Positions 1,036 to 42,217 of a stretch of 62,667 bases of DNA are shown here, piece by piece (position 1 is the first letter of the stretch; the number at the start of each line of letters is the position of its first letter). A model generated the notes under the pieces. It worked only from the letters and a program-made list of their open reading frames with translations, was not told the DNA's origin and made no database searches. Position numbers and translations under genes: made by a program. Source of the DNA: Clostridia bacterium (lineage in GTDB: Bacteria; Bacillota; Clostridia; Christensenellales; Aristaeellaceae). The DNA is taken from contig JAZTZK010000354.1 in the NCBI GenBank assembly GCA_045637485.1, forward strand, positions 1 to 62,667, read 5' to 3'.

Positions 1036-1689
1036 ATGAAGAACATTTTGATCTACGGCGACTCCAACGCATGGGGCTATGACAGCGCCCGGTACGTCCC
1101 GGAAGCGGACGCCTTTCAGCGCATGACCGAAGCGGAGCGCTGGCCCGCCCTGGTGCGAAGCATGCTCGGCTCCGACCATCACATCATCGAGGACGCCCTG
1201 AACGGCAGGACCCTGGTGTGGGACGATCCCTACATGCCGGGTCGCAACGGGCTCAAGGGGTTGCAAACCGCGCTGGACGCCCATGCGCCGCTGGATCTGG
1301 TGGTGATACAGCTGGGCTGCAACGAGCTCAAGGATTATTTCAACCTGAGCGCCGCCATGATCGCCAGGGGAATGGAAATGCTGGTCCATGCGTGCGGCGT
1401 CTCCTACTATGGCTATCCCGCGCCGAAGGTACTGCTGATCGCGCCGGCGCCGACGCACCCGGATATCGCCGCAATACGCGCCGGCTCCAGCTTCGGCCCA
1501 ACAGCCTATCCCAAGAGCTGCGAGCTCGGAAAGCTGTATCGGGCGATCGCGCAGCAGCATCACTGCGGCTTCATCGACTGCGCGGAGCTCGGTTTCGAGA
1601 TCAACACCGTGGATGGACTCCACTATTCTCATGCCGACCACGCAAAACTGGCTCCCGTTGTGGCGGAGAAGATACGCGAGATGCTGTGA
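1036..1689 (+). CDS. SGNH/GDSL-family hydrolase (esterase/lipase)
   Basis: SGNH blocks are present: ILIYGDSNAWGY (block I), DALNGRT (block II), GCNELK (block III) and DGLHYS (block V). A GGAGG RBS precedes the ATG. Confidence 0.8.
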   Translation: MKNILIYGDSNAWGYDSARYVPEADAFQRMTEAERWPALVRSMLGSDHHIIEDALNGRTLVWDDPYMPGRNGLKGLQTALDAHAPLDLVVIQLGCNELKDYFNLSAAMIARGMEMLVHACGVSYYGYPAPKVLLIAPAPTHPDIAAIRAGSSFGPTAYPKSCELGKLYRAIAQQHHCGFIDCAELGFEINTVDGLHYSHADHAKLAPVVAEKIREML

Positions 1690-1711
1690 TGAATAACAGG
1701 AGGCTGCAAAC

Positions 1712-2317
1712 ATGGAATCCAGGCAGATGAATTTTGACGGGTGGAAGTGGCTCAACGAAAGTCGCATGATGGAAGTCAACGGTGAGATTGCCATTCTTGC
1801 GCCCGCACGGACAGACTGGTTCAACAATCCGGTGCCGGAGAATGGCACGATTCCCGCGCCCGTGGCAAACGCGCCCTTTTTCTATACGGAGGTCATCGGA
1901 GATTTTGTCTTCCGCGCCAGGGTTCGGCCGAACCACCGCTACACCTACGACGCCTGCGCCCTGATGGTGATCAAGGATGAACAGATGTGGGCGAAGGCCG
2001 CGTTTGAGGCGTCCGACTTCGGCACCAGGGCGGCGGTATGCGTGGTCACCAACGGCGTCTCGGACGACGCCAACGGCTCCAATATCGATCAGTACGTCGT
2101 CTGGCTCCAGATCGCTCGTGTGCGCGACGTCTTCTGCGTCCACTACTCTCTGGATGGCGGACGCTTCGACATGGTGCGGCTGTTCCGCCTGCCCGTTGGC
2201 GACAGCGTCAAGGTCGGCCTCGAAGCCCAAAGCCCGGCCGGGAAAGGCGGCCTGCGCCTGTTCAGCGATGTGACACTTGAGAAAAGAACCGTCCAAAACC
2301 TGCGCGCCGGCGCGTAG
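1712..2317 (+). CDS. DUF1349-like (ConA-like lectin/glucanase fold) protein
   Basis: 201-aa ORF with an AGGAGG RBS 8 nt upstream. The pattern TDWF..P...GDF.F...V......YDA.ALMV......WAK..FE resembles the DUF1349 family, judged by eye only. Confidence 0.55.
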   Translation: MESRQMNFDGWKWLNESRMMEVNGEIAILAPARTDWFNNPVPENGTIPAPVANAPFFYTEVIGDFVFRARVRPNHRYTYDACALMVIKDEQMWAKAAFEASDFGTRAAVCVVTNGVSDDANGSNIDQYVVWLQIARVRDVFCVHYSLDGGRFDMVRLFRLPVGDSVKVGLEAQSPAGKGGLRLFSDVTLEKRTVQNLRAGA

Positions 2318-2410
2318 GAACCTCATTGAAAACAACATGCGCGCCGATAGCGGAAAGCGGCTGGCGCGAAGCGTGTTTTGCCTGGATAAGAACACGGAGG
2401 ATTGAGAAAA

Positions 2411-3121
2411 ATGGGCTGTGAAATCATTCAAATCAACGCAAACACCTGGAGGATCGAGGACGAAGGCGTCCGCCTGTTCCTGCTTGCGGGCACTGAGAGG
2501 GCGCTGCTCATCGACTCCGGCATGAACCTGAACAACGCGAGGGACATCGCCGCTGGGCTGACTGACCTTCCGCTTTCTCTGCTGAACACTCACGCGGACA
2601 GGGATCATATCGGCAGCAACGAACAATTCGACGCCTTTTACATGCATCCCGCGGAAGAACCCGTCTACCGACGCTCCGGAAAGCCGGGTACGGTCATTCC
2701 CATTCGGGAGGGCGATTCCCTGAACCTCGGGGATCGTGAATTGAGGATCATCCATTTGCCCGGCCACACGCCCGGCAGCATTGCCGTGCTGGACGTTCAG
2801 AACAGGGTGTTGATCAGCGGGGACCCCATCCAGGCGCATGGGCGCGTCTTCATGTTCGGGGATCATCGGAACATGGAGAATTACATTTCAAGTCTTGAAC
2901 ACCTGGAGGGCTTTGCCGATCAATTTGACGAGATCTGGCCGTCCCACGCGGATATCCCCGTCTCCCCGGCCATTATTCGAAAGCTGCATGACGGCGCGCA
3001 AGCTGTTTTGGATGGAACGATTCAGGGAAAGCCGACAGAGTTCTTTGGGCAGCGCATCGTCGTCTATGATTTGGGCTTCTGCACATTGCTGTGCGGCGAC
3101 ACAAAAGGAGGATGCCTGTGA
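2411..3121 (+). CDS. MBL-fold metallo-hydrolase
   Basis: Motifs LLIDSG, NTHADRDHIG (an HxHxDH-type motif) and HLPGHTPGS. I chose the ATG at 2411, downstream of a GGAGG, over the TTG at 2402. Confidence 0.8.
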   Translation: MGCEIIQINANTWRIEDEGVRLFLLAGTERALLIDSGMNLNNARDIAAGLTDLPLSLLNTHADRDHIGSNEQFDAFYMHPAEEPVYRRSGKPGTVIPIREGDSLNLGDRELRIIHLPGHTPGSIAVLDVQNRVLISGDPIQAHGRVFMFGDHRNMENYISSLEHLEGFADQFDEIWPSHADIPVSPAIIRKLHDGAQAVLDGTIQGKPTEFFGQRIVVYDLGFCTLLCGDTKGGCL

Positions 3122-3687
3122 AAAAGGTGGCGGTAGTATGGTCCAGCCCGAATACAGACGGCCTGACGGCGTCGGCAAAGGATCAGTTCGTACGCGGATT
3201 AATCGATGCGGGTTCGGAGGTCAATGAGATCCATCTGAACAGGAAAACCCTGGAGCATTGCCGGGCCTGCGGGAACGGCTGGGGAACCTGTAATAAGAAG
3301 GGTGCGTGCGTAATTCAAGATGATTTTGTCTCCGTCTATCAGACGCTGGCTGAGGCGGACGGCATCGTGTGGATCAGCGCGGTCTACTGGTCGGACATGA
3401 CGGAATGCTTCAAGGCGTTCTTTGACCGGCTTCGCAGATGTGACGCGACACACAATCACTTTCTGGCTGAGAAGCGCTGCGTGCTCATCGCCTGCGCGGG
3501 CGGAACGGGAAGGGGCACGCTGGAATGCCTGACGCAGCTGGAAAGAGGCCTCACCCATATGGGCATGCGCGCGTATGACCGCATCCCTGTGGTACGCTAC
3601 AACAGGAATTACATCCTCCCGGCGCTGTATGAGGCCGGAAGGGTCTACGTAGAGCGCCTTGAGAACGGATTCGATATGTTTTATTGA
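3112..3687 (+). CDS. flavodoxin-like / NADPH-dependent FMN reductase family protein
   Basis: KVAVVWSSPNTDGLT is a flavodoxin-type phosphate loop. A Cys cluster (CRACGNGWGTC) is typical of iron-sulfur flavoprotein relatives. An AAAGGAGG RBS lies before the ATG at 3112. Confidence 0.7.
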   Translation: MPVKKVAVVWSSPNTDGLTASAKDQFVRGLIDAGSEVNEIHLNRKTLEHCRACGNGWGTCNKKGACVIQDDFVSVYQTLAEADGIVWISAVYWSDMTECFKAFFDRLRRCDATHNHFLAEKRCVLIACAGGTGRGTLECLTQLERGLTHMGMRAYDRIPVVRYNRNYILPALYEAGRVYVERLENGFDMFY

Positions 3688-14284: not shown

Positions 14285-14452
14285 TCAGCATCTCTCTTGC
14301 CTTACATAGTGCCCGTTCCGATACATGTCCCCTATCTTATACAGGGAGACAGGATAACCAACGAAGGCGCACATGGCGAGATACTGGTATGCTTCGGGGT
14401 ATTCTTTCCGGTTAAGCTGTATCAAAATGATTCTCGTTTTCTCATTGGACAT
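14285..14452 (-). CDS. small Sel1-like-repeat (SLR) protein or fragment
   Basis: MSNEKTRIILIQLNRKEYPEAYQYLAMCAFVGYPVSLYKIGDMYRNGHYVRQ resembles a single SLR (A..w...AA..G...A...LG.MY..G). GGGAGAG RBS. Confidence 0.35.
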   Translation of the reverse strand: MSNEKTRIILIQLNRKEYPEAYQYLAMCAFVGYPVSLYKIGDMYRNGHYVRQERC

Positions 14453-14783
14453 GAGCTTCTCTCCCTTGCCATTCAGTCCTGATGTATTTACACCTACTTT
14501 GGCGGCGTAGACGCTGCCACGACTGAACAGATACTTTGAAAGATGAATACCGCTTGTACTTTTCAGAGCGCGATTTGATCGTATAGTATTCATTCATGGC
14601 TGCTATGGTTTCTGCACTGGGTTCATCCGTGGAGATGATGAAAGGAATGCCATGAACCTTCACGCATCTCTTTAGAAACATGTTGACTGCTGTGGATAAA
14701 TCCAACCCGAGTTCATCGAAGAGCTGGATGGAAGTCTGTTTGGTATCGCTGTCCAAGCTAAGATTCGTCGGGAACTTTGCCAA
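14442..14783 (-). CDS. RelB/DinJ-family type II antitoxin, 3' end overwritten by a repeat element; no cognate toxin gene
   Basis: AKFPTNLSLDSDTKQTSIQLFDELGLDLSTAVNMFLKRCVKVHGIPF is the DinJ ribbon-helix-helix. It uses a TTG start. The last ~30 codons (VSVQSWQRLRRQSRCKYIRTEWQ..) are encoded by repeat E. Confidence 0.65.
   Translation of the reverse strand: MAKFPTNLSLDSDTKQTSIQLFDELGLDLSTAVNMFLKRCVKVHGIPFIISTDEPSAETIAAMNEYYTIKSRSEKYKRYSSFKVSVQSWQRLRRQSRCKYIRTEWQGREAHVQ
14464..14534. repeat. mini-copy (E) of the GTATCTGTTCAGTC-TIR repeat family, without 24-bp units
   Basis: GACTGAACAGATAC at 14521-14534 is identical to the end at 31635-31648. The interior ..GGCGGCGTAGACGCTGCCAC / CCTGATGTATTTACACCTACTTTGGCGGCG matches the flanks of copies G and F. 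The opposite end is degenerate. Confidence 0.55.
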
Positions 14784-14851: not shown

Positions 14852-14865
14852 TGTGGAAGGTCAGG

Positions 14866-16445
14866 GTTACTACTCAGCCCACGAGGTAGGAAAACTTAAG
14901 TTAGTCTATAATAACCAAAAGGAGAATAGCCATTCACGTCGAATAATGAGAGATGAAAGGTGGCGAGACCATGGCGGGAATAAATGTTGAGCATGACATG
15001 TGGAAACACCTCATGGAGGTCATGGATCGCCTGGACAAAGTGGAGACAGAAGCACGGGAGCAACACAGGCGCGATAGCGCACGAATCAAGGAATTGGAAG
15101 CCAAGGTAGTGGAATTAGAGCAGCGCAATGCGGTATTGCAAAACGAGATCGACCGACTGAAGCATAAAGATGATACGGACAGCCACAATTCATCCTTGCC
15201 CCCATCAAGCGATCAGAAACCGGGAAAAGCGGCAAACGAATACAACCGGCGGAAAAAGACAGGCAAACCGAGCGGCGGCCAGAATGGGCATCCGGGTCGG
15301 ACATTGCGCCTCAAGGATTGTGTCGAGAAGTTGAAAGCGGCAGGAATCGAACCGGAGATCGAAGAGATCGGCAATGTGTCCAGGCCATATAAGGAACGAC
15401 TTGTTCTGGATGTCATGTTGAGGCCGAAAGCCATTTTGAAGCGGTTTCATGAGCAGGAGGACGGGAAATATCGGATTCCGGAGGAATACAACAGCGAGGT
15501 TGTATACGGAGCGGACATCAAGGCACTGACGGCGTTACTCTATGGACAGGGCGTTCAGTCGGCTGAAAGAATAGTGGAACTGATCAAGGCACTCTCTGGG
15601 GACATTATAGAAGTATCCCAAGGGACCATTTTTAGTTGGCTTGAAGCGCTGCACCAGAGTGCCGAAGCTGAAAAGAAGAAGATCGAAGAGCAATTGCTCG
15701 ACTTGCCCCAGGTGAGCACAGACGCGACAACAGTGAGTATGAACGGGCATCAGGCCTATATTCGCAATTTCAGCGATCGGCATTGGGTGTTCTATGCGCC
15801 TATGGAGCGAAAGAACATCGAAGCGCTGGCGAAGATTCCGTTCATGAAGAAATTCGCGGGCATCCTGACGCATGACCACGAGACAGCCTTGTACCACTTT
15901 GGAACAGACCACGCAGAATGCAACGTACATCTGATACGCTATCTGACAGCCAACACTGAGAATACTGGCCACAAGTGGAGCAGCAAGATGATCTCCCTTC
16001 TCTGCGAAGCGAACCGGTATCGAAAAAGGATGATGGCCAAACAGCAATACCACAGGGAACTCTGCTGCGCTTGGAATCACGCTTTGACGAGTTGCTCGCC
16101 TTTGCCAGACATGAGCGCAAACAGCATCCGGCCCGTTTCCGATGGGCCACCCAGGAAGAAACCTCACTGTTAAACCGATTGAAGAAATACAAGCAGAATC
16201 ACCTGCTGTTTCTTCACGATTTTCGCGTCCCTTTTGACAATAACATAAGCGAGCGATCTGCGCAAATGTAAGAATCGCCAGAAGATGGCCGGTGGCTTTC
16301 GTACTGCCCACGGCCTTGATATCTTTTGCTCTTTGCTCTCCATTACTGAAACCTGCAAGCCTCAAGCTATCAATTTGCTGGCTGCTTTTCGTTCACTCTT
16401 CTGTCATATCCCCATCTTCTCCTGATTTGTGGGCTGAGTAGTAAC
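14866..16445 (+). mobile_element. IS66-family insertion sequence (single-ORF, ISBst12-like organisation), 1580 bp
   Basis: Perfect 17-bp terminal inverted repeats: GTTACTACTCAGCCCAC at 14866-14882 and its reverse complement at 16429-16445. They enclose an IS66-type transposase gene. Confidence 0.85.
14971..16425 (+). pseudogene. IS66-family transposase with two frameshifts
   Basis: An N-terminal coiled coil, then NSSLPPSSDQKPGK, GHPGRTL and a DDE region (..THDHETALYHFG..HAECNVHLIRYL). The reading frame goes 1 -> 3 near 16040-16056 and 3 -> 1 at ~16251-16257 (..FDNNISER / DLRKCKNRQKMAGGFRT..). Confidence 0.8.
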
Positions 16446-16454
16446 GTTTTACCG

Positions 16455-16713
16455 GTAACAGCTCAGTCCCGTATGGAAAATGACAGAAACCCTTCGTAGG
16501 GACGCCATAATTAGCGTCCGGGGAACCTGTTACAGGGTCAACGGACGCCTATTTCTGGCGTCCCTACGGCTACGTTGATTCATTTGCGAGGATGGGACTG
16601 AACAGATATGGTTTTCAAAGATAATCCCGCCGCAAAATACCTGCGGGGTCGGCGTACACGCCGCCGACCCCGATCAAATGTCCGAACGCATGAAAGGTAC
16701 GCTGTGCAGTAAC
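16455..16713. mobile_element. MITE-like element D (259 bp) with perfect 8-bp target-site duplication
   Basis: Ends are GTAACAGCTCAG ... CTGTGCAGTAAC. TTTTACCG is duplicated at 16447-16454 and 16714-16721. The interior holds long hairpins (GTAGGGACGCC...GGCGTCCCTAC) and an internal GACTGAACAGATAT (16596-16609). Confidence 0.75.
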
Positions 16714-16829
16714 TTTTACCGTAACCATGCCTCATATCAGGCCGCAGGGAGAAGCCATCGAGGGCTTTATTATGTTAAAATAAAAACCAAATTAAATACG
16801 TAAGTATAGACCATCGTTCATAAAAAATA

Positions 16830-16859
16830 TGGACAATATAATTTACGATGTGGTATAAT
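16830..16859 (+). promoter_or_regulatory. sigma-70 promoter with extended -10 for the ABC operon
   Basis: TGGACA (16830-16835), an 18-nt spacer, then TGgTATAAT (-10 at 16854-16859). It sits in an AT-rich tract about 115 nt upstream of the permease ATG. Confidence 0.5.
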
Positions 16860-16972
16860 CAGTCAACACCAGGTGATGATATTGGGCAACGGCCGATAGA
16901 ATCATGGCGCTGAACAGTGGCGACAGCGGGAAAACTGACCGGGAAGAATACGGGGGAGGCTGAATACCGATC

Positions 16973-17650
16973 ATGACACTCTCAGACAAACTCTATACCA
17001 TCCTCATCAAGGGAGGCAGCTGGAAGACCATACTCGGCGGCCTGTGGGTAACGATTCAAATATCGTTTTTCGCCCTGCTGGTCGGCACGGTGCTGGGGGC
17101 GGTGATCTGCCTGCTGCGCACGCGGAACAATCCCGTTCTGCGGGGCGTCGCCTCGGTCTATATCGCCATACTGCGGGGCACGCCGGTGCTGATGCTGCTG
17201 CTCCTGCTGTACTATGGCGTGTTCGCCCGGGCGGGGCTTCAGCCGGTGACGGTGGCGGTGATCACCTTCGCGCTGAACGTGTCCGCCCACGTGGCGGAGC
17301 TGCTGCGCTCGGCGCTGTCCGCCGCGGACAGGGGCCAGGCCGAGGCCGCGCGCACGCTGGGCTTCTCCGCCTGGGATACCTTCCGGCTCATCACGCTGCC
17401 CCAGGTGCTGCGCATCGCCAAGCCCGTGTATCAGTCCACCGTGGTGAACCTGATCCAGTGGACCAGCGTGGTGGGCTATGTGACCATCACCGACCTGACC
17501 CGCGTCATCAACAACACCGCATCCCGCACGATGCAGCCGCTGCTGACCATCGGCATCGGCATGTTGATCTATCTGGCGCTGTCTTATATCATCTTTGGCT
17601 TGTTCGCACTGTCGGACAGGATAAAGAGCAGGGCGCATATGACAACCTGA
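16973..17650 (+). CDS. polar amino-acid ABC transporter permease (HisM/GlnP family)
   Basis: 225 aa with about 5 TM segments. The EAA-loop-like AARTLGFSAWDTFRLITLPQ is present. Confidence 0.85.
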   Translation: MTLSDKLYTILIKGGSWKTILGGLWVTIQISFFALLVGTVLGAVICLLRTRNNPVLRGVASVYIAILRGTPVLMLLLLLYYGVFARAGLQPVTVAVITFALNVSAHVAELLRSALSAADRGQAEAARTLGFSAWDTFRLITLPQVLRIAKPVYQSTVVNLIQWTSVVGYVTITDLTRVINNTASRTMQPLLTIGIGMLIYLALSYIIFGLFALSDRIKSRAHMTT

Positions 17651-17671
17651 CAAAATAAGGAGGAGGATTTT

Positions 17672-18526
17672 ATGAAAAAATGGACAACTCTGGTACTGGC
17701 TGCGCTGCTGGCGCTCTCCGCGCTGAGCATTCCCGCGATCGCGGAGGAGCAGGGCGTGCTTGGCCGCCTGACCAAGCTGAACGTGGATGAAGCTACGCTG
17801 ACCGACGCCATTGCCGAAAGCTATTTTGACAAGGTCCCCTTTTCAGGCTATCAGTTCTTTGATACGCTCAACAGCATGACCGCGGCGCTCTCCAGCGGGA
17901 TAATTGCCGGCCTGGCCGTTGACGCGCATACGGCGCAATACCTGCTCTCAAGGTCGGAGGACTTTGCGATTTATACGGCCCCGGAGGCGGTTCCCTCGTA
18001 TAATCTGGGCTTTTCCATGCTGCTGCGGGAGGAGGACGCGGAAATGTGCGCCGCCATCTCGGAGGCGATCGCGGAAATCGAGGCGGACGGCACGTTGGGC
18101 GCCTTGAAGCAGAGCTACATCGATGATGTCATCGCGGGCGTAGAACCCGATGCCGTGGTACCGGAGCGCTTTGACGGCGCGGAGACCTTCACGGTCGCGC
18201 TGACGGGCGACAGACCGCCGATGGACTATTTCTCCGCGGATGGAGCGCCGATTGGCTTCAACACGGCGCTCGTATCGGAGGTCGGCAGGCGGCTTGGCGT
18301 CAATATCGAATTCATCTCCGTGGACACCGGCGCGCGCGCCATCGCCCTGGCCTCGCAGCAGTGTGACGCGGTCTTCTGGATGGAGGCCGGAGATTTCGGC
18401 AACTGGGAAAACGCGGACGTGGAGGACCAGCCCGCGAATACCGTCGCCACCGTACCGTATCTCAAGGGTGCTTTCACCATCATCGTTTTGGCCGATTCAC
18501 CTTTGATTGACAACGAAGCGCAATAA
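17672..18526 (+). CDS. family-3 solute-binding protein, circularly permuted (paralog 1)
   Basis: Signal peptide MKKWTTLVLAALLALSALSIPAIA. SBP_bac_3-type sequence blocks are present, but the canonical C-terminal half precedes the canonical N-terminal half (FTVALTGDRPPMDYF..GFNTALVSEVGRRLGV). Confidence 0.8.
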   Translation: MKKWTTLVLAALLALSALSIPAIAEEQGVLGRLTKLNVDEATLTDAIAESYFDKVPFSGYQFFDTLNSMTAALSSGIIAGLAVDAHTAQYLLSRSEDFAIYTAPEAVPSYNLGFSMLLREEDAEMCAAISEAIAEIEADGTLGALKQSYIDDVIAGVEPDAVVPERFDGAETFTVALTGDRPPMDYFSADGAPIGFNTALVSEVGRRLGVNIEFISVDTGARAIALASQQCDAVFWMEAGDFGNWENADVEDQPANTVATVPYLKGAFTIIVLADSPLIDNEAQ

Positions 18527-18544
18527 GATGGGAGGCGAGGCGGC

Positions 18545-19642
18545 GTGAGCCTGATCGAAGTGAAGGGCCTGAAGAAATCCTTCGGCAGCCTGGAGGTCCT
18601 GAAGGGCGTCGATCTGACCGTGGAGCAGGGCGAGCGCATCGTCATCATCGGCGGCAGCGGCTGCGGCAAGAGCGTGTTCCTGCGCTGCCTGTGCCTGCTG
18701 GAGCAGCCCGACGCGGGACAGGTGCGGATCGACGGGCGGGACATCACCGCCGCCAGGGGCGTGCAGGTGGACGAGATTCGCCGCAGCATGGGCATGGTGT
18801 TCCAGAAGTTCCACCTGTTTTCCGAGATGGACGTGATGGACAACCTGTGCCTGGCCCCGACGCGCATTCTGAAAATGCCCCGGGCGGAGGCGGAGCAGAA
18901 GGCCATGGAGCTGCTCCAACAGGTGGGCCTTTCAAGCCGCGCCCACGCCTGGCCCACGGTGCTCTCCGGCGGACAGCAGCAGCGCATCGCCATCTGCCGC
19001 TGCCTGATGATGGGGCCGAAGGTGCTGCTGTTCGACGAGCCGACGAGCGCCGTTGTCCCCACCACGGTGGGCGAGGTGCTGGCGGTGATCCGTATGCTGG
19101 CCAAGCGGGACCTGAGTATGCTGATCGTGACCCACGAGATGAACTTCGCCCGCGAGGTGGCCAGCCGCGTGCTGTTCTTCGCCGACGGCGGCATCTACGA
19201 GCAGGGCACGCCCGATGAAATCTTCGATGCGCCGAAGCGGGAAAAGACGATCGCGTTTATCAACAAGATCAAGTACTTTACCTATGAGATCGCCCACCGC
19301 GATTTCGACCTGATGCAGCTCCAGGGCGGCATCCAGAACTTCGGCGAGAAATACGGCCTGAATCAGAAGCGCATTTTCAGATTGCGGGTCTGCTGCGAGG
19401 AGCTGATCTATGAACTGCTGGAGCACTGCTATCCCAGCGGGAACGATGTGGATTTGAAGCTGTCCGTGTCCCACGCGGAGTCGGACGGCGAGACGCACAT
19501 CGACCTCGATTGCGGCGGCGCGGCCTACAATCCCTTCGAGCAGGAAGAGTGCGGCCTGGGCGTGACCATACTGAAGAACATGGCCACGCGGCTGGACTAC
19601 CGCCGGGACGACGGCCTCAACCGCATATCGGTTCGCATCTGA
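18545..19642 (+). CDS. amino-acid ABC transporter ATP-binding protein with ~120-aa C-terminal extension
   Basis: Walker A GGSGCGKS, Q-loop MVFQKFHLF, signature LSGGQQQR, Walker B LLFDEPTS and H-loop VTHEM. The D-loop reads SAVV rather than SALD. About 120 extra residues follow the NBD. GTG start with a GGAGGCGAGG RBS. Confidence 0.85.
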   Translation: MSLIEVKGLKKSFGSLEVLKGVDLTVEQGERIVIIGGSGCGKSVFLRCLCLLEQPDAGQVRIDGRDITAARGVQVDEIRRSMGMVFQKFHLFSEMDVMDNLCLAPTRILKMPRAEAEQKAMELLQQVGLSSRAHAWPTVLSGGQQQRIAICRCLMMGPKVLLFDEPTSAVVPTTVGEVLAVIRMLAKRDLSMLIVTHEMNFAREVASRVLFFADGGIYEQGTPDEIFDAPKREKTIAFINKIKYFTYEIAHRDFDLMQLQGGIQNFGEKYGLNQKRIFRLRVCCEELIYELLEHCYPSGNDVDLKLSVSHAESDGETHIDLDCGGAAYNPFEQEECGLGVTILKNMATRLDYRRDDGLNRISVRI

Positions 19643-19648
19643 TTTTTC

Positions 19649-19882
19649 GTTACGGCTCAGCCTGCGGCTTCGCCTGTGTGGACGGGAGAGCAAGCTCCCC
19701 CCCCACGGCCACCCCCTCGCAGCCTCCTGCGCGCGCCCTTCGGGCACACTTGGAAGCTGTAAGGAAGGTATTTTTTGCTTGGGTCGTCAGGCCCCCGTCG
19801 CAAAAATACCTTCGGGGTCGGCGTACACGCCGCCGTCCCCGATCAACTGTCAGAAAGGACGAGATGTACGCTGAGTGGTAAC
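19649..19882. mobile_element. MITE-like element A (234 bp)
   Basis: Ends are GTTACGGCTCAG ... CTGAGTGGTAAC. Flanks are GATTTTTC (19641-19648) and GATTTTCC (19883-19890), a 7/8 match. The 5' half is near-identical to MITE B and the 3' half to the 3' half of MITE D. Confidence 0.75.
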
Positions 19883-19884
19883 GA

Positions 19885-20631
19885 TTTTCCCCCCTCCGAC
19901 GGGACGCGCTGAACGAGATTCTTCAGGATATTCTCTTCAATGTCATGCCGTTTTCGGGCTTCAAGTATTTTGATACGTTCAACAGCCTTATTCTCGCCTT
20001 TGGCAATGGGACGATCGAGGCTATAGAGGCGGATGAATACGTGACGGGTTTCCTGTCTTCCCGCATGGAAGACCTCGCGCTTTATATACCCGACGGCCTT
20101 CCCGAATACCAGTCGGGCTATTGCATGCTCCTGAGGGAAGAGGACGTCGAGCTACGCGATCGCATTTCCGAGGCGATTACGGATATGAAGGAAGACGGAA
20201 CGCTGGATGCCCTGAAGGCGCGCTATATCGACGATGTCATAGCCGGCAGCGAGCAGGAGGTGGTGACGCCGGAGCAATTTGAGGGCGCGGATACGATCCG
20301 GGTGGCCTTGACCGGCGACCGCCTGCCCATGGATTACTTCTCCGAATCAGGGGAAGCCAACGGCTTTAATACCGCGCTCGTGACGGAGGTCGCAAAGCGG
20401 CTGGGAATGAACGTCGAATTCATCTCCGTGGATACCGGCGCGCATGCCGTCGCCCTGGCTTCACATTCAACGGATGTCGTCTTCTGGTCTGAGGTGGGCG
20501 ATTACAACAACTGGGAGAAGGCCAACGCCGAGGATCAGCCGGAGAACACCATTGTGACGGCACCCTATCTCACAGGTACGCTCTTTTACATTGTCCCGCC
20601 GGATTCCCCGCTGGCAAACAAATCCCTTTAG
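19885..20631 (+). pseudogene. family-3 solute-binding protein paralog 2, lacking signal peptide/N-terminus
   Basis: The ORF opens immediately after MITE A. Similarity to paralogs 1 and 3 starts at ..LNEILQDILFNVMPFSGFKYFDTFNS. The first ATG (19945) leaves no signal peptide. Confidence 0.65.
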
Positions 20632-20707
20632 AGCTGCCCTTTAGGCAACCCGACGATGGAAGCGCCCTCCCGGCGCTCCCAAATATTTAACACTGGAGGT
20701 ACAAATC

Positions 20708-21592
20708 ATGAAAAGAATCGTTTCGCTGACCCTTGCTCTGCTGCTGGCGCTGTGCGCGCTTCCGTTCGCGTTTGCCGAGACACAGGACGACACCGAAGCT
20801 ATTCCGGAGGACTACGGCGCATTGGGTATACTGAGGAAGATGAATATTACCGCGGAGGAGTTGAATGAAATCCTTGCGGAGCCACTGGTCGAATTGAGCT
20901 ATTACGACAGGTTCGCGGATTACGACACGGTGACCAGCCTGATCATGGCGCTGAACGTCGGGGAGATTGCGCTCATCAGCGTCGATGGCAACACTGCGAA
21001 GTACATCGCTTCCAGAAACGAGCATTTTGTGGTGCGCATCCCCAATGACGGTGATTACATGCTGGGCTACTCCATGCTGCTCCGGGGGGAGGACAGGGAG
21101 CTGTGCGAAAGGATGTCCGGGATCATCCGGGAAATGAAGGGTGACGGATCGATGGAGGCCCTGAGAAAGACCTATATCGACGATGTGATCGCCGGAAACG
21201 ATCCTGTAGAGGGCATCGTGCCGCAGTCCTTTGAGGGCGCGGACACGATCCGCGTGGCTGTGACGGGAGATCGTCCGCCGATGGATTACATTGCCCCCGA
21301 CGGGACGCCGATGGGCTTTAATACGGCGCTGATCGCGGAGATCGCCAAGAGGCTTCAAATCAATGTCGAACTGGTCAGCTTCGACAGCGGCGCGCGCGCC
21401 ATCGCCCTGGCCTCCGGCGCCGCGGACGTCATCTTCTGGTCCCAGGGCGCGAATTTTGACAACTGGAGCGACGCGGACAGCGAGGATCAGCCCGAAGGAA
21501 CCGTCGTGACCGAGAGCTATCTTTCCTCCCCCTGCCGCTATGTTGTGCTGGATTCCTCGCCGCTGGCGGATATCCTGGAGCCGTGGGAGTAA
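20708..21592 (+). CDS. family-3 solute-binding protein, circularly permuted (paralog 3)
   Basis: Signal peptide MKRIVSLTLALLLALCALPFAFA. It has the same permuted block order as paralog 1 (..IRVAVTGDRPPMDYIAPDGTPMGFNTALIAEIAKRLQI.. in the C-terminal half). Confidence 0.8.
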   Translation: MKRIVSLTLALLLALCALPFAFAETQDDTEAIPEDYGALGILRKMNITAEELNEILAEPLVELSYYDRFADYDTVTSLIMALNVGEIALISVDGNTAKYIASRNEHFVVRIPNDGDYMLGYSMLLRGEDRELCERMSGIIREMKGDGSMEALRKTYIDDVIAGNDPVEGIVPQSFEGADTIRVAVTGDRPPMDYIAPDGTPMGFNTALIAEIAKRLQINVELVSFDSGARAIALASGAADVIFWSQGANFDNWSDADSEDQPEGTVVTESYLSSPCRYVVLDSSPLADILEPWE

Positions 21593-21656
21593 GATTTTCG
21601 GCGGCGCAATCATCGTGGAGAACGCTATAACGGGTTTGAAACCCGTACCATAGAAA

Positions 21657-21726
21657 CAGATCCCCCGCTTCATTCGGGATGACGGCGATTTGACGCCACG
21701 TCATCCCGAACGGAGCGGGGGATCTG
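21657..21726. repeat. long near-perfect palindrome (28-nt arms, 14-nt loop)
   Basis: CAGATCCCCCGCTTCATTCGGGATGACG (21657-21684) pairs with CGTCATCCCGAACGGAGCGGGGGATCTG (21699-21726), with 26 of 28 positions complementary. Confidence 0.5.
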
Positions 21727-21772
21727 TGTGATCATGTGCGGCCTGTCGTGAGCGCTCGGCGCACCCTCCGCC

Positions 21773-21991
21773 GTTACGGCTCAGCCTGCGGCTTCGCCTG
21801 TGTGGACGGGGGGCAGGCTCCCCACCACGGCCACTCCCCGCAGCTTCCCGCGCGCGCCCTTCGGGCACACCCGGAAGCTGATAAGAGGTGTTTTCTTTGG
21901 AAAACGCCCCGTCCCCGACGTACACGCCGCCGGGGACGATTGTAAATCGGGGGTTGCGACCCCCGATACCCCCGTGGGGCTGAGCTGTAAC
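21773..21991. mobile_element. MITE-like element B (219 bp)
   Basis: Ends are GTTACGGCTCAG ... CTGAGCTGTAAC. The first ~125 nt are near-identical to MITE A. It has no duplication of its own (left flank CCTCCGCC, right flank AGGTCAGG). Confidence 0.7.
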
Positions 21992-22263
21992 AGGTCAGGT
22001 TTTCATCCGTCTAAAGCCTGCGTCTATGGTGCGGGAATGCCTGGACCGACGTAAGCGTCAAATATAACCGCGTCCGCACTTCTCTTTGACAGCCGGGTTC
22101 CAAGGCGCTGCCTGCGCGAGGAATCAGCGACTCCAAATGTGCGACCAGAACAGGCGGCAGCGTTCCTTTTTCAGGCGCTGCCGTGTGTATTTTGGTCTAT
22201 GCGTAAGACTGATTATATGATATAATGAAGCTGACCAATCAGGATATACAGGAGAAAGCGTAA

Positions 22264-22872
22264 ATGGATTTGAACAGGATGATACCCAAAGTAGGTTCAG
22301 CGATCGTAACGGTTACAGTATTTCTGTTTGCGATATTTGAGATCATCAATTTCTCTATGGGCAGCTTCTTTGTCTGCCTGATTCTGCCGATTGGTTTTAT
22401 CCTGATGACGGCAGGTCTGCACTACGAGTGCGAAAGCAACCGCAAAGTCGCTGCGAATATTGGGATGGTTTTTGCGGCGGTGTACTGCATGCTGATCATG
22501 GTCGTCTACTTTGCTCAGCTGACCACGGTAAACAACGAGCAACTGACCGAACAGGCGGCAAAACTGCTCGATATAAGTAAGTTCGGACTGATCTTCAACT
22601 ATGACCTGCTGGGTTATGGCATAATGGCTCTCTCTACTTTCTTTACCGGACTTTCGATGAAAGCAAAGAACAGGACAGACAAGTGGCTCAAAGCACTGAT
22701 GATGATACATGGCGTGTTCTTCTTCAGTTGCAGCTTTATGCCGATGACGGGAATGTTCTCAAGGATGTCTTCTGACGGTGGTAGTATCGGCGGAAGGCTC
22801 GCTCTTGTGGCGTGGTGTGTATATTTTCTGCCCGTCGGAATTCTTGCTTTCCTGCATTTCCGAAAAAAATGA
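22264..22872 (+). CDS. integral membrane protein, function unknown
   Basis: 202 aa with about 6 hydrophobic segments, in a low-GC region. A TATAAT-type promoter lies upstream (~22222-22232). Confidence 0.6.
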   Translation: MDLNRMIPKVGSAIVTVTVFLFAIFEIINFSMGSFFVCLILPIGFILMTAGLHYECESNRKVAANIGMVFAAVYCMLIMVVYFAQLTTVNNEQLTEQAAKLLDISKFGLIFNYDLLGYGIMALSTFFTGLSMKAKNRTDKWLKALMMIHGVFFFSCSFMPMTGMFSRMSSDGGSIGGRLALVAWCVYFLPVGILAFLHFRKK

Positions 22873-25342: not shown

Positions 25343-25792
25343 ATGCAGACAATATCATTTGCGGAAGGAAACGAGCAGCATCTGAAAGATTGCATGGACG
25401 CGCTATGCCGCTCGGTACTTGGCGAAAAATGCTCTTCTTCCCCAGGGAGCACGGAAAACGCAAACCTTGAAGGGATTCTCCGGGGGAATTTGTATGTTGC
25501 GCTCATCGCCGAGTACAAAGCCGCTGGTCGGCGCAAGGAGATCGAAGGCGCACTGAAGGCGCTGCACCGGGACAGCCGCGAGGCGGCCATCCCGGAAGAC
25601 CTCTGTTTCGTGTATGGAGTGTATCCGGAAGACTACCTCCACGACGTGGAGATTTGCCAGCGGTTTGCCCCCAGAAGCCGGGAGCGGATGGCGGAAATCA
25701 TTCTCGGACGGTATCTGTTCAGTCATGGCGGCGTAGACACCGCCGCTACGAGGAGATATGCCTGTAGCGGCGACACGAAGTTAGTCCTTTAG
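25343..25792 (+). CDS. hypothetical protein (possibly degraded GNAT-like); C-terminus encoded by repeat element G
   Basis: The start MQTISFAEGNEQHLKDCMDALCRSVLGEK resembles some GNATs, but later motifs are not recognisable. The last ~27 codons and the TAG stop lie inside repeat 25711-25816. Confidence 0.3.
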   Translation: MQTISFAEGNEQHLKDCMDALCRSVLGEKCSSSPGSTENANLEGILRGNLYVALIAEYKAAGRRKEIEGALKALHRDSREAAIPEDLCFVYGVYPEDYLHDVEICQRFAPRSRERMAEIILGRYLFSHGGVDTAATRRYACSGDTKLVL

Positions 25793-25816
25793 GGCGACAC
25801 GTAGTTAGTCCTTTAC
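25711..25816. repeat. left-end half-copy (G) of the second repeat family: TIR + hairpin module + 2 x 24-bp units
   Basis: GTATCTGTTCAGTC is at 25711-25724. The units GGCGACACGAAGTTAGTCCTTTAG (25769-25792) and GGCGACACGTAGTTAGTCCTTTAC (25793-25816) follow. Confidence 0.7.
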
Positions 25817-27039
25817 AGAGGCAGTTTTCTACCCTGCTTCTTCCATTCCAGGAACTCAGCGGTAGCTGTGAAGATCACGTCGCCGGAAGAATTCAACGCC
25901 GTTTCCAGGGAATCCTGGATCACGCTGATGATGAAGCCAACGCCCACCAGCTGCATGGCGGTGTCATTCGATATGCCGAACAGAGAGCAGCCCAGGGGCA
26001 CCAGCATCAGCGATCCGCCCGCCACGCCGGAGGTACCGCAGGCCGAGAACGTTGCCACGATACTCAGGAAAATCGCCATCGGTAATGTAACATGAACGCC
26101 CGTGGTAAACGCAGCCGCCAGGGAGAAGATGGTAATGGTCACCGCCGCGCCGTCCATATTGATGGTGGAGCCCAGAGGAATCGACACCGAATACAGATTC
26201 TCATCCAGGCCCAGCTCCTTGCACAACTCCATGTTCACAGGGATATTGGCCGCGGAGCTTCGGGTGAAGAAGGCGGTGACGCCGCTCTGCCTGAGGCAGC
26301 GCAACACCAGCGGATAGGGGTTGTGTCGAAGCACCAGTCCCACGATCACCGGATTTACCACCAGCGCTACAAAAAGCATCGTGCCCACCAGCAGGCCGAT
26401 CAGCTGGCCGTAGGTTTTGAATATCTCCGCTCCACTGGACGATACGGCGCTGAATATCAAACCCAGTATGCCGAAGGGCGCGCAGGCGATAACCCAACGC
26501 ACCACCGCGGATACTGCGTCGGCCAGGTCTTCCATCATTTGCTTGGTACCCGGCTTAGCCAGCTTCAACGCAATCCCGAACACCACAGCCCAGAACAGTA
26601 TACCGATGTAATTGGCACTGGCAAGCGCTTCCACAGGATTGGCAATGATGCTCCCCAACAGGTTTATCACCACTTCGGACATCCCCTGTGGTGCGGCGGA
26701 GGCGTCCGCGGCCTCCAGGCGCTTCAGTGGAATAATCACCGGAAAGGCGAAGCTGGTAACCACAGACACGATCGCCGCACATAGAGTGCTGAAAAGGTAC
26801 AGGATGATGACTGTACGGAACTTGGCCATGCTGCCACCCTTGGAGTTGGCCAGGGATGACGCGACGAGCACAAATACCAGGATAGGAGCAATGGCTTTCA
26901 ACGCGCCGACGAACAAATCGCCAATCACACCGATCCACTTGAGCCCCGGCGCAACAAAACCCAACACCGCGCCGATGATCAATCCAATCAGGATTCGCGC
27001 AATCAGGCTCATGGAATTCCATTTCTTGATGATACCCAT
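25813..27039 (-). CDS. sstT: serine/threonine:sodium symporter SstT (DAACS family)
   Basis: MSLIARILIGLIIGAVLGFV.. and conserved blocks such as ..SSAANIPVNM.. and ..PLGSTINMDGAAV... I chose the ATG at 27039 (GGGGTG RBS). The stop codon is supplied by the last repeat unit. Confidence 0.85.
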   Translation of the reverse strand: MGIIKKWNSMSLIARILIGLIIGAVLGFVAPGLKWIGVIGDLFVGALKAIAPILVFVLVASSLANSKGGSMAKFRTVIILYLFSTLCAAIVSVVTSFAFPVIIPLKRLEAADASAAPQGMSEVVINLLGSIIANPVEALASANYIGILFWAVVFGIALKLAKPGTKQMMEDLADAVSAVVRWVIACAPFGILGLIFSAVSSSGAEIFKTYGQLIGLLVGTMLFVALVVNPVIVGLVLRHNPYPLVLRCLRQSGVTAFFTRSSAANIPVNMELCKELGLDENLYSVSIPLGSTINMDGAAVTITIFSLAAAFTTGVHVTLPMAIFLSIVATFSACGTSGVAGGSLMLVPLGCSLFGISNDTAMQLVGVGFIISVIQDSLETALNSSGDVIFTATAEFLEWKKQGRKLPL

Positions 27040-31169: not shown

Positions 31170-31498
31170 CTTTTGTTGTGCATTGATACTATGAAAAGCA
31201 GCTTCCACAGCCCTTTGAAGGTATATACGTCGCCGGACTGACTGGTGAGATCGACTTCGCAGAGCTTGTTCTTGTAGTCATAGTCCGACGCCATCTTTGC
31301 AGCAGCTCGTCCAGCTTTTCCAGCTGGTAATAGCGAAGCAATGCGGCGTTTAGTAGCATCCTTTCATCGTTCCTCCATGCGAAAAAAGGTCTATGTAACT
31401 GTGACTCCATATCCTCAAAATCAAATCATATAATACTATAGTTTTGGTATTGATTCCATTTCTCAAATATAACAAATCCATTATAATTTGAACATATT

Positions 31499-31648
31499 AG
31501 CGACACGAAGTTAGTCCTTTAGGGCGACACGTAGTTAGTCCTTTAGGGCGACACGAAGTTAGTCCTTTAGGGCGACACGAAGTTAGTCCTTTAGGACGGC
31601 CTCCAGGCCGCCAAAGCAGGTGCAAATACATCAGGACTGAACAGATAC
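31499..31648. repeat. right-end half-copy (F) of the second repeat family: 4 x 24-bp units + hairpin module + TIR
   Basis: Units are at 31499-31522, 31523-31546, 31547-31570 and 31571-31594. Then GACGGCCTCCAGGCCGCCAAAGCAGGTGCAAATACATCAG, then GACTGAACAGATAC (31635-31648), the exact reverse complement of 25711-25724. Confidence 0.75.
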
Positions 31649-32659: not shown

Positions 32660-34006
32660 TTACGCCTTCGATACGTCGGCGCTGCGCGGATATCTCCATT
32701 TCAGCATCGCCGCGCAAAGGATCGCCGTGATCAGCGACGCCAGCGGCGTGGCATACCAGATGGCGTTCGCGCCGAAGAGCGCCGGCACCAGGTAGACCAT
32801 CGCCACCGGGGCCGCCAGTGATTCGCATACGGCGATCAGCGCGGAGGCCAGGCCGTCACCCAGTCCGGTAAATACGGACGAGACGACCAGATTAAAGCCG
32901 TAGAACAGGCAAGCCAGCGACGAGATGCGAAGCGCCTGCATTGCCAGACCGCGGGCAGCGTCGTCATAGCCCAGGTAGACGCTGGCGATGGGGCCGGCGA
33001 AGGCCGCGCACAGCAGGCACATCACCACGCCCAGCCCCACCGACAGGAGGCTGCCTGTGCGCGCCAGGCTGTCCAGCTCCTTCCTGTTCTTCGCGCCGTA
33101 CTGGTATCCGACCACCGTGACCATTGTGCTGGAGATGCCGAAAAACACGGCCATGAACAGCTCGATCACATAGTTGTACACGCCCATCGCCGCCACGCCG
33201 ATCTCCCCGATGTAGCGGGTCAGCTGGCTGTTGATCACCAGCTGGGTCAAATTCGCGGTGAGGCCGTCAACCATTTCGGAGAATCCGTTGCCGCAGATCC
33301 GGCCCAGCTCACGCAGGTGGGCCATGTTTACCCGGACCAGTCGCAGAGACGAGGCGTTGGGCCGGAGGAAGTACACGGCGGTGAACCCGGCGGTGATCAG
33401 CGCCGACAGGGACGTGGCCAGCGCCGCGCCCCGAACGCCCCAGCCCAGCGGGCCCATGAACAGCCAGTCCAGCAGCACGTTCAGCGCCCCGTTCACCACG
33501 GACACCCACATGCCCAGTACGGGCTTTTCCGCGGTGATCCACAGCGACTGGAACGCCGCGTTGACCAGATAGGCGGGTAAAAACGCCGTCAACAGCCGCC
33601 CATAGTCGACGCAATAGGGGATGGCGGCCTCCGTGGCACCCACCAGCCGCGCCAGGGCGGGCATCAGCGCCGTCGCCAATCCGCCCAGCACGATCCCCAG
33701 CAGCATCATGACCACCATCGACAGGGTGAACACCTCCCGGCCCTTCTGGCGCTCACCCTCGCCCATCAGCTGGGCCACGAGAGCGCTGGTGCCGGAGCCG
33801 AACATGAAGCCCAGACCGTAGAGCACGAGAAACGCCGGGGAGATGAAGTTGACCGCCGCGAAGGGGGTCACCCCAAGGTAGTTGGACACGAACACCCCAT
33901 CCACCAGCTGGAACGAGGTGATCGCCAGCATCTGGCCGATGGCGGGCAGGGAATAGCGCAAAAGCTTTCCCCAGGTAAAGTGTTCCGAAAGCTCGATCTT
34001 CTTCAT
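32660..34006 (-). CDS. MATE-family efflux transporter (translationally coupled to the NRPS gene)
   Basis: 448 aa with about 12 TM segments. Its start overlaps the NRPS stop by 4 nt (ATGA). Confidence 0.85.
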   Translation of the reverse strand: MKKIELSEHFTWGKLLRYSLPAIGQMLAITSFQLVDGVFVSNYLGVTPFAAVNFISPAFLVLYGLGFMFGSGTSALVAQLMGEGERQKGREVFTLSMVVMMLLGIVLGGLATALMPALARLVGATEAAIPYCVDYGRLLTAFLPAYLVNAAFQSLWITAEKPVLGMWVSVVNGALNVLLDWLFMGPLGWGVRGAALATSLSALITAGFTAVYFLRPNASSLRLVRVNMAHLRELGRICGNGFSEMVDGLTANLTQLVINSQLTRYIGEIGVAAMGVYNYVIELFMAVFFGISSTMVTVVGYQYGAKNRKELDSLARTGSLLSVGLGVVMCLLCAAFAGPIASVYLGYDDAARGLAMQALRISSLACLFYGFNLVVSSVFTGLGDGLASALIAVCESLAAPVAMVYLVPALFGANAIWYATPLASLITAILCAAMLKWRYPRSADVSKA

Positions 34007-42071: not shown

Positions 42072-42217
42072 ACGCCATCCAAACACTCCATGACGAAAAC
42101 CATGCCATCCTCCGGGCAGTCTCAATACCCTGAGATCAGCGACCTCTCAACGATTTGTTTTCCCGCTCTGACGAGCTTTCCTCCACGGCAAGCCTTCCGT
42201 TCAGTATCACGGCTTAT

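What the first reader, a model, noticed from the sequence alone, without database searches (positions are those of the whole stretch)
14858..21999. A 7.1-kb composite transposon with IS66-type ends and a perfect 8-bp duplication, carrying an ABC importer operon
The left boundary is the IS left inverted repeat, GTTACTACTCAGCCCAC (14866-14882). The right boundary is the outer end of MITE B; the reverse complement of 21974-21991 is GTTACAGCTCAGCCCCAC. This is the same terminus apart from the two central nucleotides and one extra C. The 8 nt immediately outside both ends are identical: AGGTCAGG at 14858-14865 and at 21992-21999. The IS alone has no matching duplication, since its own right flank is GTTTTACC, and MITE B alone has none either (left flank CCTCCGCC). 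IS66-family elements are known to make 8-bp target duplications. The simplest reading is that the whole block inserted as one unit just upstream of the dinJ-like promoter. That block holds the IS, MITE D, the promoter, the permease, SBP1, the ATPase, MITE A, SBP2, SBP3 and MITE B. This would be a MITE/IS hybrid composite transposon moving a nutrient-uptake operon rather than a resistance gene.
Basis: partly seen in the sequence, partly recalled or inferred. Interest (0 to 1): 0.8.

Follow-up and report, generated by a model that had tools for sequence, protein, structure and literature searches.

The report
IS–MITE hybrid transposon carrying ABC importer
A 7.1-kb DNA block holding an amino-acid-type uptake operon sits between one end of a decayed insertion sequence and one end of a miniature relative, with the same 8 bases repeated just outside both ends; this is the footprint of the whole block having jumped in as one unit, a tidy but not surprising example of how mobile elements move ordinary metabolic genes.

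Summary
AGGTCAGG lies directly outside the left end of a 1,580-bp IS (14866-16445) and directly outside the right end of MITE B (21773-21991).

I compared the 8-bp flanks of all five elements of this end type in the window. Each left end pairs with exactly one right end:
- IS-left with MITE-B-right, 8/8
- MITE D with itself, 8/8
- MITE A with itself, 7/8
- MITE E with itself, 8/8

IS-right and MITE-B-left stay unpaired. Chance is at most about 1e-3.

The IS belongs to the single-ORF ISBst12 group of the IS66 family. That group has GTNACNNCTCAGC ends and 8-bp duplications, shown experimentally for ISDge4. This copy's transposase is dead, with 7-bp and 2-bp deletions.

An unrelated metagenome contig (L014) shows the same architecture in miniature: IS, 9 bp, MITE, all flanked by one perfect 8-bp repeat.

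No same-species sequence exists in any collection I searched. The empty site and a second copy therefore could not be found.

This is a new example of a known kind (composite transposon or transposable module), now immobile unless a transposase acts in trans. Interest is moderate to low.

The parts
14858..14865 (.). Left copy of the 8-bp target-site duplication, AGGTCAGG
14866..16445 (+). ISBst12-group (IS66 family) insertion sequence, 1,580 bp. The terminal 17 nt, GTTACTACTCAGCCCAC, are identical at both ends. The inverted-repeat arms are 14866-14894 and 16417-16445.
   Evidence: (I5)
14953..16425 (+). Transposase pseudogene. Compared with intact 1,588-bp copies it has a 7-bp deletion after 16027 and a 2-bp deletion after 16252. 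Intact relatives are 487 aa and 92-93% identical to the repaired translation.
16446..16454 (.). 9-bp spacer, GTTTTACCG, between the IS right end and the MITE D left end. Positions 16447-16454 are the left copy of MITE D's own duplication, TTTTACCG.
16455..16713 (+). MITE D, 259 bp. It has its own perfect 8-bp duplication, TTTTACCG, whose right copy is at 16714-16721.
   Evidence: (D9)
16830..16859 (+). Promoter-like site upstream of the operon: TGGACA, 18 nt, TG-TATAAT (11 of 12 matches)
16973..17650 (+). ABC permease (BPD_transp_1; passes the HEQRo_perm_3TM cutoff)
17672..18526 (+). Substrate-binding protein SBP1 (SBP_bac_3), 284 aa
18545..19642 (+). ABC ATPase with an extra C-terminal HATPase_c_2-like domain, 365 aa
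19649..19882 (+). MITE A, 234 bp, with its own 7/8 duplication: GATTTTTC at 19641-19648 and GATTTTCC at 19883-19890
   Evidence: (D9, D12, D14)
19885..20631 (+). SBP2, truncated at the 5' end. It has no signal peptide, and its homology begins right at the MITE A border.
20708..21592 (+). SBP3 (SBP_bac_3), 294 aa, intact
21656..21727 (.). Palindrome with 29-nt arms, downstream of SBP3
   Evidence: I3
21773..21991 (+). MITE B, 219 bp. Its distal (right) end, whose reverse complement reads GTTACAGCTCAGCCCCAC, is the right boundary of the block. MITE B has no duplication of its own (CCTCCGCC on the left, AGGTCAGG on the right).
21992..21999 (.). Right copy of the 8-bp target-site duplication, AGGTCAGG
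14442..14783 (-). Left neighbour: relB/dinJ-like antitoxin gene. Its promoter-like site (14836-14808) lies 22 bp from the insertion point.
22264..22872 (+). Right neighbour: 202-aa membrane protein gene. The insertion is intergenic, and no ORF spans the rebuilt empty site.

Best explanation
The 7,126 bp from 14866 to 21991 entered this intergenic site in one transposition event. A transposase of the ISBst12 group of the IS66 family paired the left end of the IS with the far end of MITE B, a compatible terminal repeat lying downstream. It did not use the IS's own right end.

The transposase came either from this IS before it decayed or from a sister copy acting in trans. The event moved everything between the two ends: the IS, the ABC importer operon, and possibly MITE D and MITE A. 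It duplicated the 8-bp target AGGTCAGG. By analogy with ISDge4, the movement was probably copy-and-paste.

MITE D and MITE A are separate simple insertions with their own duplications. The order of their insertion relative to the jump is unknown.

The IS later lost its transposase through 7-bp and 2-bp deletions, so the block is now immobile unless helped in trans.

What is shown: the ends, the flank pairing, the family assignment, the transposase decay and the parallel locus. What is inferred: the single-event transposition, its donor and its timing.
For: - Flank pairing matrix (corrected): IS_L/B_R 8/8, while IS_R and B_L are unpaired. The other three MITEs each carry their own 8-bp duplication, so this end type makes 8-bp duplications in this genome.
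- Chance is at most about 9e-4.
- Family: DUF6444 + DDE_Tnp_IS66. The ends match those of ISDge4 (GTGACTACTCAGCA and GTAACTGCTCAGCA). ISDge4 transposes experimentally with an 8-bp repeat and tolerates non-identical ends (PMC12898284).
- The relative L011, on a 197-kb NCBI genome contig, has the same GTTACTACTCAG ends and a perfect 8-bp duplication, ATTTTGAG.
- L014 is an independent parallel. It holds an IS (1171-3001), a 9-bp spacer and a 177-bp MITE (3011-3187), all flanked by GTTTACAT on both sides. The IS alone and the MITE alone have no duplication.
- Homologous operons in relatives (80-88% nucleotide identity) sit at other loci with none of these ends. The right-flank gene in relatives has no such operon upstream.
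Against: - No empty site and no second copy of the block were found. The nearest relatives are 88% identical for the flank protein and 87% for the ATPase, and the DNA scans were empty. Movement as a unit is therefore inferred from one locus.
- Four related full-length IS copies on metagenome contigs lack duplications: L008, L010, L012 and L013. These may be chimeric short-read joins, but this was not shown.
- The IS left end and the MITE B right end differ at positions 6-7 and by one extra C. Cross-recognition by one transposase is assumed.
- The transposase scores below NCBIfam's IS66 cutoff (143.6 against 180 bits).
Confidence: 0.8

Rival explanations
1. Coincidence. The IS and MITE B inserted separately around a resident operon, each lost its own duplication through later rearrangement, and the two AGGTCAGG copies match by chance.
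For: Several related IS copies also lack duplications, so missing duplications are not rare for this element in the available data. AGGTCAGG occurs four times in the window against 1.46 expected.
Against: The probability of an 8/8 match is 1.8e-5 to 3.4e-5 per comparison, at most about 9e-4 over all 25 end pairs. The match involves exactly the two ends that have no partner. The same architecture recurs in L014.
Confidence: 0.03
2. Stepwise build-up by recombination. An element, IS or MITE, first inserted at AGGTCAGG with a normal duplication. The operon was then brought in by homologous recombination between dispersed MITE or IS copies, for example integration of a circle or a crossover between MITE B-like copies.
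For: MITE A and MITE B share a 39-nt identical left end and are mosaics of shared modules, so MITE-MITE recombination is plausible here. A crossover inside MITE B would explain its mismatched flanks.
Against: The left junction is a true IS end. It aligns with other IS copies from the first base. The IS and the MITEs share only the terminal 17 nt or so, which is too little for a second homologous crossover. An inversion or an adjacent deletion would not leave both AGGTCAGG copies in direct orientation flush with outward-facing ends.
Confidence: 0.1
3. Assembly artefact. The contig is a chimera joined through repeated IS or MITE sequence, and the block does not lie between these flanks in the real genome.
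For: The window appears to be a single metagenome-type contig: its proteins are seen on one 62,667-bp contig only. Repeated 1.6-kb IS copies can cause chimeric joins.
Against: A chimera would not produce identical 8-mers outside the two outer ends. The IS right end and the MITE B right end share no exact word longer than 8 nt, so no assembler could switch paths there. The MITEs, at 260 bp or less, are shorter than typical read pairs.
Confidence: 0.03

Closest known systems
ISBst12 group of the IS66 family (ISBst12, ISDge4)
   Same: Both have a single transposase ORF with a DDE_Tnp_IS66 domain, GTNACNNCTCAGC terminal repeats and an 8-bp target duplication. ISDge4 transposes by copy-and-paste and has non-identical ends (PMC12898284).
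   Different: This copy is a pseudogene. Its left end is paired with a MITE end 7.1 kb away rather than with its own right end. The transposase is about 490 aa with a DUF6444 N-terminus, and it scores below NCBIfam's IS66 equivalog cutoff.
Classical composite transposons (Tn5, Tn10; TnPg17 of Porphyromonas gingivalis, which carries ABC transporter genes)
   Same: Cargo genes lie between two elements whose outer ends are used together. The target duplication flanks the whole unit and not the individual elements (PMC2575886; PMC10969869).
   Different: Only one boundary is an IS. The other is a 219-bp non-coding MITE from a related but different end subtype. The cargo is a nutrient importer, not a resistance gene.
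MITE-flanked mobilised segments (class 1 integrons flanked by MITEs in Acinetobacter)
   Same: MITE ends serve as transposase substrates to move the DNA between them, with the transposase supplied in trans (PMC10969869).
   Different: Those units have two identical MITEs. This one is an asymmetric pairing of an IS with a MITE.
Transposable modules and ISEcp1-type one-ended mobilisation (IS1380 family: ISPme1, IS1247a)
   Same: A single IS moves adjacent downstream DNA by skipping its own right end and using a downstream surrogate end (PMC3281130).
   Different: The IS family is different. Here the surrogate end is a genuine, well-matched MITE terminal repeat, not a weak fortuitous look-alike.

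Membership tests
IS66 family, ISBst12 group | Transposase with a DDE_Tnp_IS66 catalytic domain | tested here: met
   Pfam PF03050 scores 34.3 bits against a cutoff of 23.1 on the first ORF, and PF20042 (DUF6444) is also present. The intact relatives P0241-P0244 carry both domains. PGAP names distant plasmid homologues 'IS66 family transposase'.
IS66 family, ISBst12 group | Passes NCBIfam's IS66 transposase equivalog model | tested here: not met
   NF033517 scores 143.6 bits against a cutoff of 180 for the intact relative P0244. This is a divergent subgroup.
IS66 family, ISBst12 group | Single ORF, with no tnpA or tnpB accessory genes | tested here: met
   The element is 1,580 bp and holds one frameshifted transposase reading frame.
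IS66 family, ISBst12 group | Terminal inverted repeats of the GTNACNNCTCAGC type | tested here: met
   GTTACTACTCAGCC is present at both ends. ISDge4 has GTGACTACTCAGCA and GTAACTGCTCAGCA.
IS66 family, ISBst12 group | 8-bp target-site duplication | tested here: inconclusive
   The IS alone has none (AGGTCAGG on the left, GTTTTACC on the right). The IS-left/MITE-B-right unit has 8/8. Among relatives, L011 has 8/8, while L008, L010, L012 and L013 have none.
Composite transposon / transposable module | Two outward-facing, transposase-compatible ends in inverted orientation bounding the unit | tested here: met
   The ends are GTTACTACTCAGCCCAC and the reverse complement GTTACAGCTCAGCCCCAC.
Composite transposon / transposable module | A duplication of family-typical length flanks the whole unit, while the inner ends are unpaired | tested here: met
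   Pairing matrix.
Composite transposon / transposable module | Empty target site, or the same unit at a second locus with a different duplication | tested here: inconclusive
   No hit for the 21-mer made of left flank plus duplication in metagenome contigs. No hit for the IS ends or the transposase in genome contigs. No protein more than 88% identical in 5.8 billion clusters. The data lack a close relative, so the test could not be made.
Composite transposon / transposable module | A working transposase | tested here: not met
   The copy in cis carries 7-bp and 2-bp frameshifting deletions. Mobility now would need a transposase in trans.
MITE | Short, non-coding, multi-copy, with IS-like terminal repeats and duplications | tested here: met
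   Four copies of 187-259 bp share the GTTAC..CTCAG termini. The duplications are 8/8, 7/8 and 8/8 for D, A and E.
Polar amino acid (PAAT-type) ABC importer | BPD_transp_1 permease, SBP_bac_3 binding protein and ABC_tran ATPase in one operon | tested here: met
   Pfam. TIGR01726 scores 77.4 bits against a cutoff of 42.2. The substrate was not determined.

The most novel reading that the evidence does not exclude
ISBst12-group transposases may have a built-in route to cargo capture, in two steps.
1. MITEs are inserted at a fixed position next to the IS right end. The spacer is 9 bp both here and in the unrelated L014.
2. The transposase then reads past the IS's own right end and uses a downstream MITE end as a surrogate.

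This would yield IS plus MITE units that range from 2 kb with no cargo (L014) to 7 kb with a whole operon (this window). If it is general, this would be a recurrent way of moving metabolic operons in gut Clostridia.
Probability: 0.25. Interest if true: 0.55.

Novelty: new member of a known kind. Interest (0 to 1): 0.35.

Why it matters
The locus is a clean, sequence-level example of a non-resistance operon, an amino-acid-type ABC importer, packaged as a transposon in an uncultured Clostridia-like bacterium. The pairing of an IS with a MITE is asymmetric, and standard annotation would not recognise it. It adds the little-studied ISBst12 group to the elements known to mobilise adjacent genes. 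It also warns that IS copies without their own duplications can mark the ends of larger mobile units. It does not change any concept in the field.

Tried and rejected
- Exact-protein look-ups of both flank genes found nothing on record.
- Relatives of the right-flank gene are not syntenic upstream, so they give no empty site.
- Relatives of the ABC ATPase carry homologous operons at other loci without these ends. These loci are neither donors nor second copies.
- The scan of genome contigs with the IS-end pattern gave 0 hits, and the scan with the transposase protein gave 0 confirmed.
- The scan of metagenome contigs for left flank plus duplication gave 0 hits. The scan for the IS right end gave one contig, L010.
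- The scan of viral contigs for IS-right/MITE-left junctions gave 0 hits.
- tblastn against plasmids found only relatives of about 30% identity.
- No ORF spans the rebuilt empty site, so no gene was disrupted.
- Rfam found no riboswitch or known RNA in the block.
- Base composition does not discriminate. The block is 56-63% GC, the immediate flanks 43-51%, and the window ranges from 45% to 68% overall.
- I looked for matching 8-mers next to end motifs in the flanks of the duplication-less IS copies L008, L010, L012 and L013. None was found within the contigs.


Full report
**Observation**

- AGGTCAGG occupies 14858-14865 and 21992-21999. The 62.7-kb window holds only four copies of this 8-mer.
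- The left copy abuts GTTACTACTCAGCCCAC at 14866.
- The right copy abuts the end of MITE B at 21991, whose reverse complement reads GTTACAGCTCAGCCCCAC.
- The end motif GTWACNNCTCAGYC occurs 8 times in the window, against 0.58 expected by chance.

**Inventory of elements**

The motif hits resolve into five elements:
- an IS at 14866-16445
- MITE D at 16455-16713
- MITE A at 19649-19882
- MITE B at 21773-21991
- a fifth MITE, which I call E, far outside the block at 45474-45660

The MITEs share only the termini and a few internal modules.

**Flank pairing**

I compared the 8 bases outside every left end with the 8 bases outside every right end (MITE E start corrected).
- MITE D pairs with itself (TTTTACCG, 8/8).
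- MITE A pairs with itself (GATTTTTC and GATTTTCC, 7/8).
- MITE E pairs with itself (ATTCTGCC, 8/8).
- The IS left end pairs with the MITE B right end (AGGTCAGG, 8/8).
- With the corrected MITE E coordinate, the printed off-diagonal values are 5 or lower. The IS right end (GTTTTACC) and the MITE B left end (CCTCCGCC) have no partner.

An 8/8 match has probability 1.8e-5 from base composition and 3.4e-5 empirically. Over all 25 comparisons that is at most about 9e-4.

Three conclusions follow. This end type makes 8-bp duplications in this genome. AGGTCAGG is not part of any terminus. The only two ends without a partner of their own are partners of each other.

**The IS**

The IS encodes one reading frame with DUF6444 and DDE_Tnp_IS66 domains. 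The frame is broken twice. Alignment with two intact 1,588-bp copies from metagenomes (L008 and L010, about 92% identical to this copy) locates a 7-bp deletion after 16027 and a 2-bp deletion after 16252. The repaired protein finds intact 487-aa relatives at 92-93% identity.

The intact relative scores below NCBIfam's IS66 equivalog cutoff, 143.6 against 180 bits. The element therefore belongs to a divergent single-ORF subgroup.

The published ISDge4 belongs to the ISBst12 group of the IS66 family. It has terminal repeats GTGACTACTCAGCA and GTAACTGCTCAGCA and a single transposase. It was seen experimentally to transpose by copy-and-paste with an 8-bp direct repeat (PMC12898284). Those ends are essentially the ends found here, and the two ISDge4 ends differ from each other. 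That makes it plausible for one transposase to use both the IS left end and the MITE B right end, which differ at positions 6-7 and by one extra C. Other IS66-family elements are also tabulated with 8-bp repeats (PMC3281130).

**The cargo**

Between the ends lie, in order:
- a strong promoter-like site at 16830-16859
- a permease with BPD_transp_1, which passes the HEQRo_perm_3TM cutoff
- SBP1
- an ABC ATPase with an extra HATPase_c_2-like C-terminal domain
- MITE A
- SBP2, truncated at its 5' end
- SBP3
- a long palindrome

This is a polar-amino-acid-type importer. Its substrate is unknown.

**Evidence from relatives**

No same-species sequence exists in the collections.
- The best homologue of the right-flank 202-aa protein is 88% identical. 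The best homologue of the ATPase is 87% identical.
- Exact look-ups of window proteins found nothing.
- Loci of the flank-gene relatives (L001-L004) share only that gene with the window.
- Loci of the ATPase relatives (L005-L007) carry homologous operons, 80-88% identical in nucleotides. L007 has the same order of permease, SBP and ATPase. They sit in unrelated contexts, and none of the seven loci contains the end motif.

So the operon is not at this locus in any relative I could examine, and elsewhere it is not bounded by these ends. This fits relocation here. It is not an empty-site proof.

The DNA and protein scans added little:
- IS ends in genome contigs: 0 hits
- left flank plus duplication in metagenome contigs: 0 hits
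- transposase in genome contigs: 0 confirmed
- IS right end in metagenome contigs: one contig, L010

**Behaviour of related IS copies**

L011 encodes a transposase 53% identical to the repaired one here. It lies on a 197-kb NCBI contig, has the same GTTACTACTCAG ends, and has a perfect 8-bp duplication, ATTTTGAG.

L008, L010, L012 and L013 have both ends but no duplication. All four lie on metagenome-derived contigs, where joins through a repeated 1.6-kb element can be chimeric. I could not resolve this and record it as unexplained.

**An independent parallel**

L014 comes from a 67-kb scaffold. Its transposase, P0360, is 46% identical to the repaired one here. The locus holds:
- an IS at 1171-3001, with GTAACAGTTCAGCC-type ends
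- a 9-bp spacer, AAAAAAATC
- a complete 177-bp MITE at 3011-3187

GTTTACAT lies immediately outside the IS left end (1163-1170) and immediately outside the MITE right end (3188-3195). Neither the IS alone nor the MITE alone has a duplication.

This is the same architecture as in the window, without cargo. It shows that this IS group does move units defined by an IS left end and a downstream MITE right end. The spacing from the IS right end to the MITE left end is 9 bp in both cases; in the window the spacer is GTTTTACCG at 16446-16454.

**Rivals**

- Chance is excluded at about 1e-3, and it is further weakened because the match joins exactly the two orphan ends.
- Recombination-based build-up would need a crossover between the IS and a MITE, which share only about 17 nt. 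Inversions or adjacent deletions would not leave both repeats in direct orientation flush with outward-facing ends.
- Misassembly cannot generate the pattern, because the two right ends share no exact word longer than 8 nt.
- The insertion is intergenic. No ORF spans the rebuilt site. It lies 22 bp upstream of the -35 element of the promoter-like site of the relB/dinJ-like gene.

**Comparison with what is known**

Several related kinds are already described:
- composite transposons, including one that carries ABC transporter genes (TnPg17, PMC2575886)
- MITE-flanked mobilised segments (PMC10969869)
- single-IS transposable modules that use a surrogate far end (PMC3281130)

This locus combines them: an IS at one end and a MITE of a related end subtype at the other, from the ISBst12 group, carrying a nutrient importer. 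I class it as a new member of a known kind.

**Verdict**

The element is decayed and the biology is ordinary. The most interesting open thread is the repeated 9-bp IS-to-MITE spacing, together with the possibility that read-through to MITE ends is a regular property of this IS group.

Noticed in passing
window 16446-16454; L014 3002-3010: In the window and in the unrelated locus L014, a MITE left end lies exactly 9 bp after the IS right end. In the window this is 1 bp plus MITE D's 8-bp duplication. This suggests end-directed target choice, but there are only two cases.
   Followed up: partly
L008 2468-4055; L010 344-1931; L012 89-1742; L013 3887-5502: Four full-length relatives of the IS have both ends but no 8-bp duplication. 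L008 and L010 are 99.7% identical to each other yet sit in different contexts. Possible causes are chimeric short-read joins, recombination, or their being left ends of larger units.
   Followed up: partly
window 45474-45660: A fifth MITE (E, 187 bp) with the same termini and a perfect duplication, ATTCTGCC, lies between a GGDEF-domain gene and an MFS transporter gene. It contains one copy of the 24-bp unit described in the next item (45537-45561).
   Followed up: yes
window 25746-25841 and 31476-31619; also 14472-14534: Two arrays of a 24-bp tandem repeat, GCGACACGAAGTTAGTCCTTTAGG, bracket a 5.7-kb segment in direct orientation. The segment holds an SDF symporter, a sortase-like protein and an InlB-repeat surface protein. 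The sequences next to the arrays recur, inverted, at 14472-14534, inside the 3' end of the relB-like ORF. Their function is unknown.
   Followed up: partly
window 17672-18526, 19885-20631, 20708-21592: The three binding proteins look circularly permuted relative to canonical amino-acid-binding proteins. Residues of about 38-154 align with positions of about 140-250 in solved structures, and residues of about 172-234 align with positions of about 12-72.
   Followed up: partly
window 18545-19642: The ABC ATPase carries an extra C-terminal domain of about 110 aa with weak similarity to HATPase_c_2 (anti-sigma-factor or histidine-kinase-like ATPase). The domain is conserved in thousands of relatives at 76-87% identity.
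   Followed up: no
window 19641-19900; L005 12264-12455: SBP2 lacks roughly its first 40-50 codons, and the truncation lies right at the MITE A border. The relative L005 carries a duplicated 111-nt fragment of the ATPase 3' end in front of the orthologous binding-protein gene. This points to repeated duplication and deletion among the tandem binding-protein genes.
   Followed up: partly
window 34003-41376 (minus strand), 41439-42125, 32660-34006: A two-module non-ribosomal peptide synthetase (2,457 aa, with Condensation, AMP-binding and PP-binding domains) lies next to a phosphopantetheinyl transferase and a MatE exporter. This region is the GC-richest part of the window.
   Followed up: no
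L007 1-160: The contig with the closest same-order operon homologue starts with a different inverted-repeat element (CTTCACGGAAAGTTG...CAACTTTCCGTGAAG) just upstream of the permease gene. That operon too adjoins small repeat elements.
   Followed up: no
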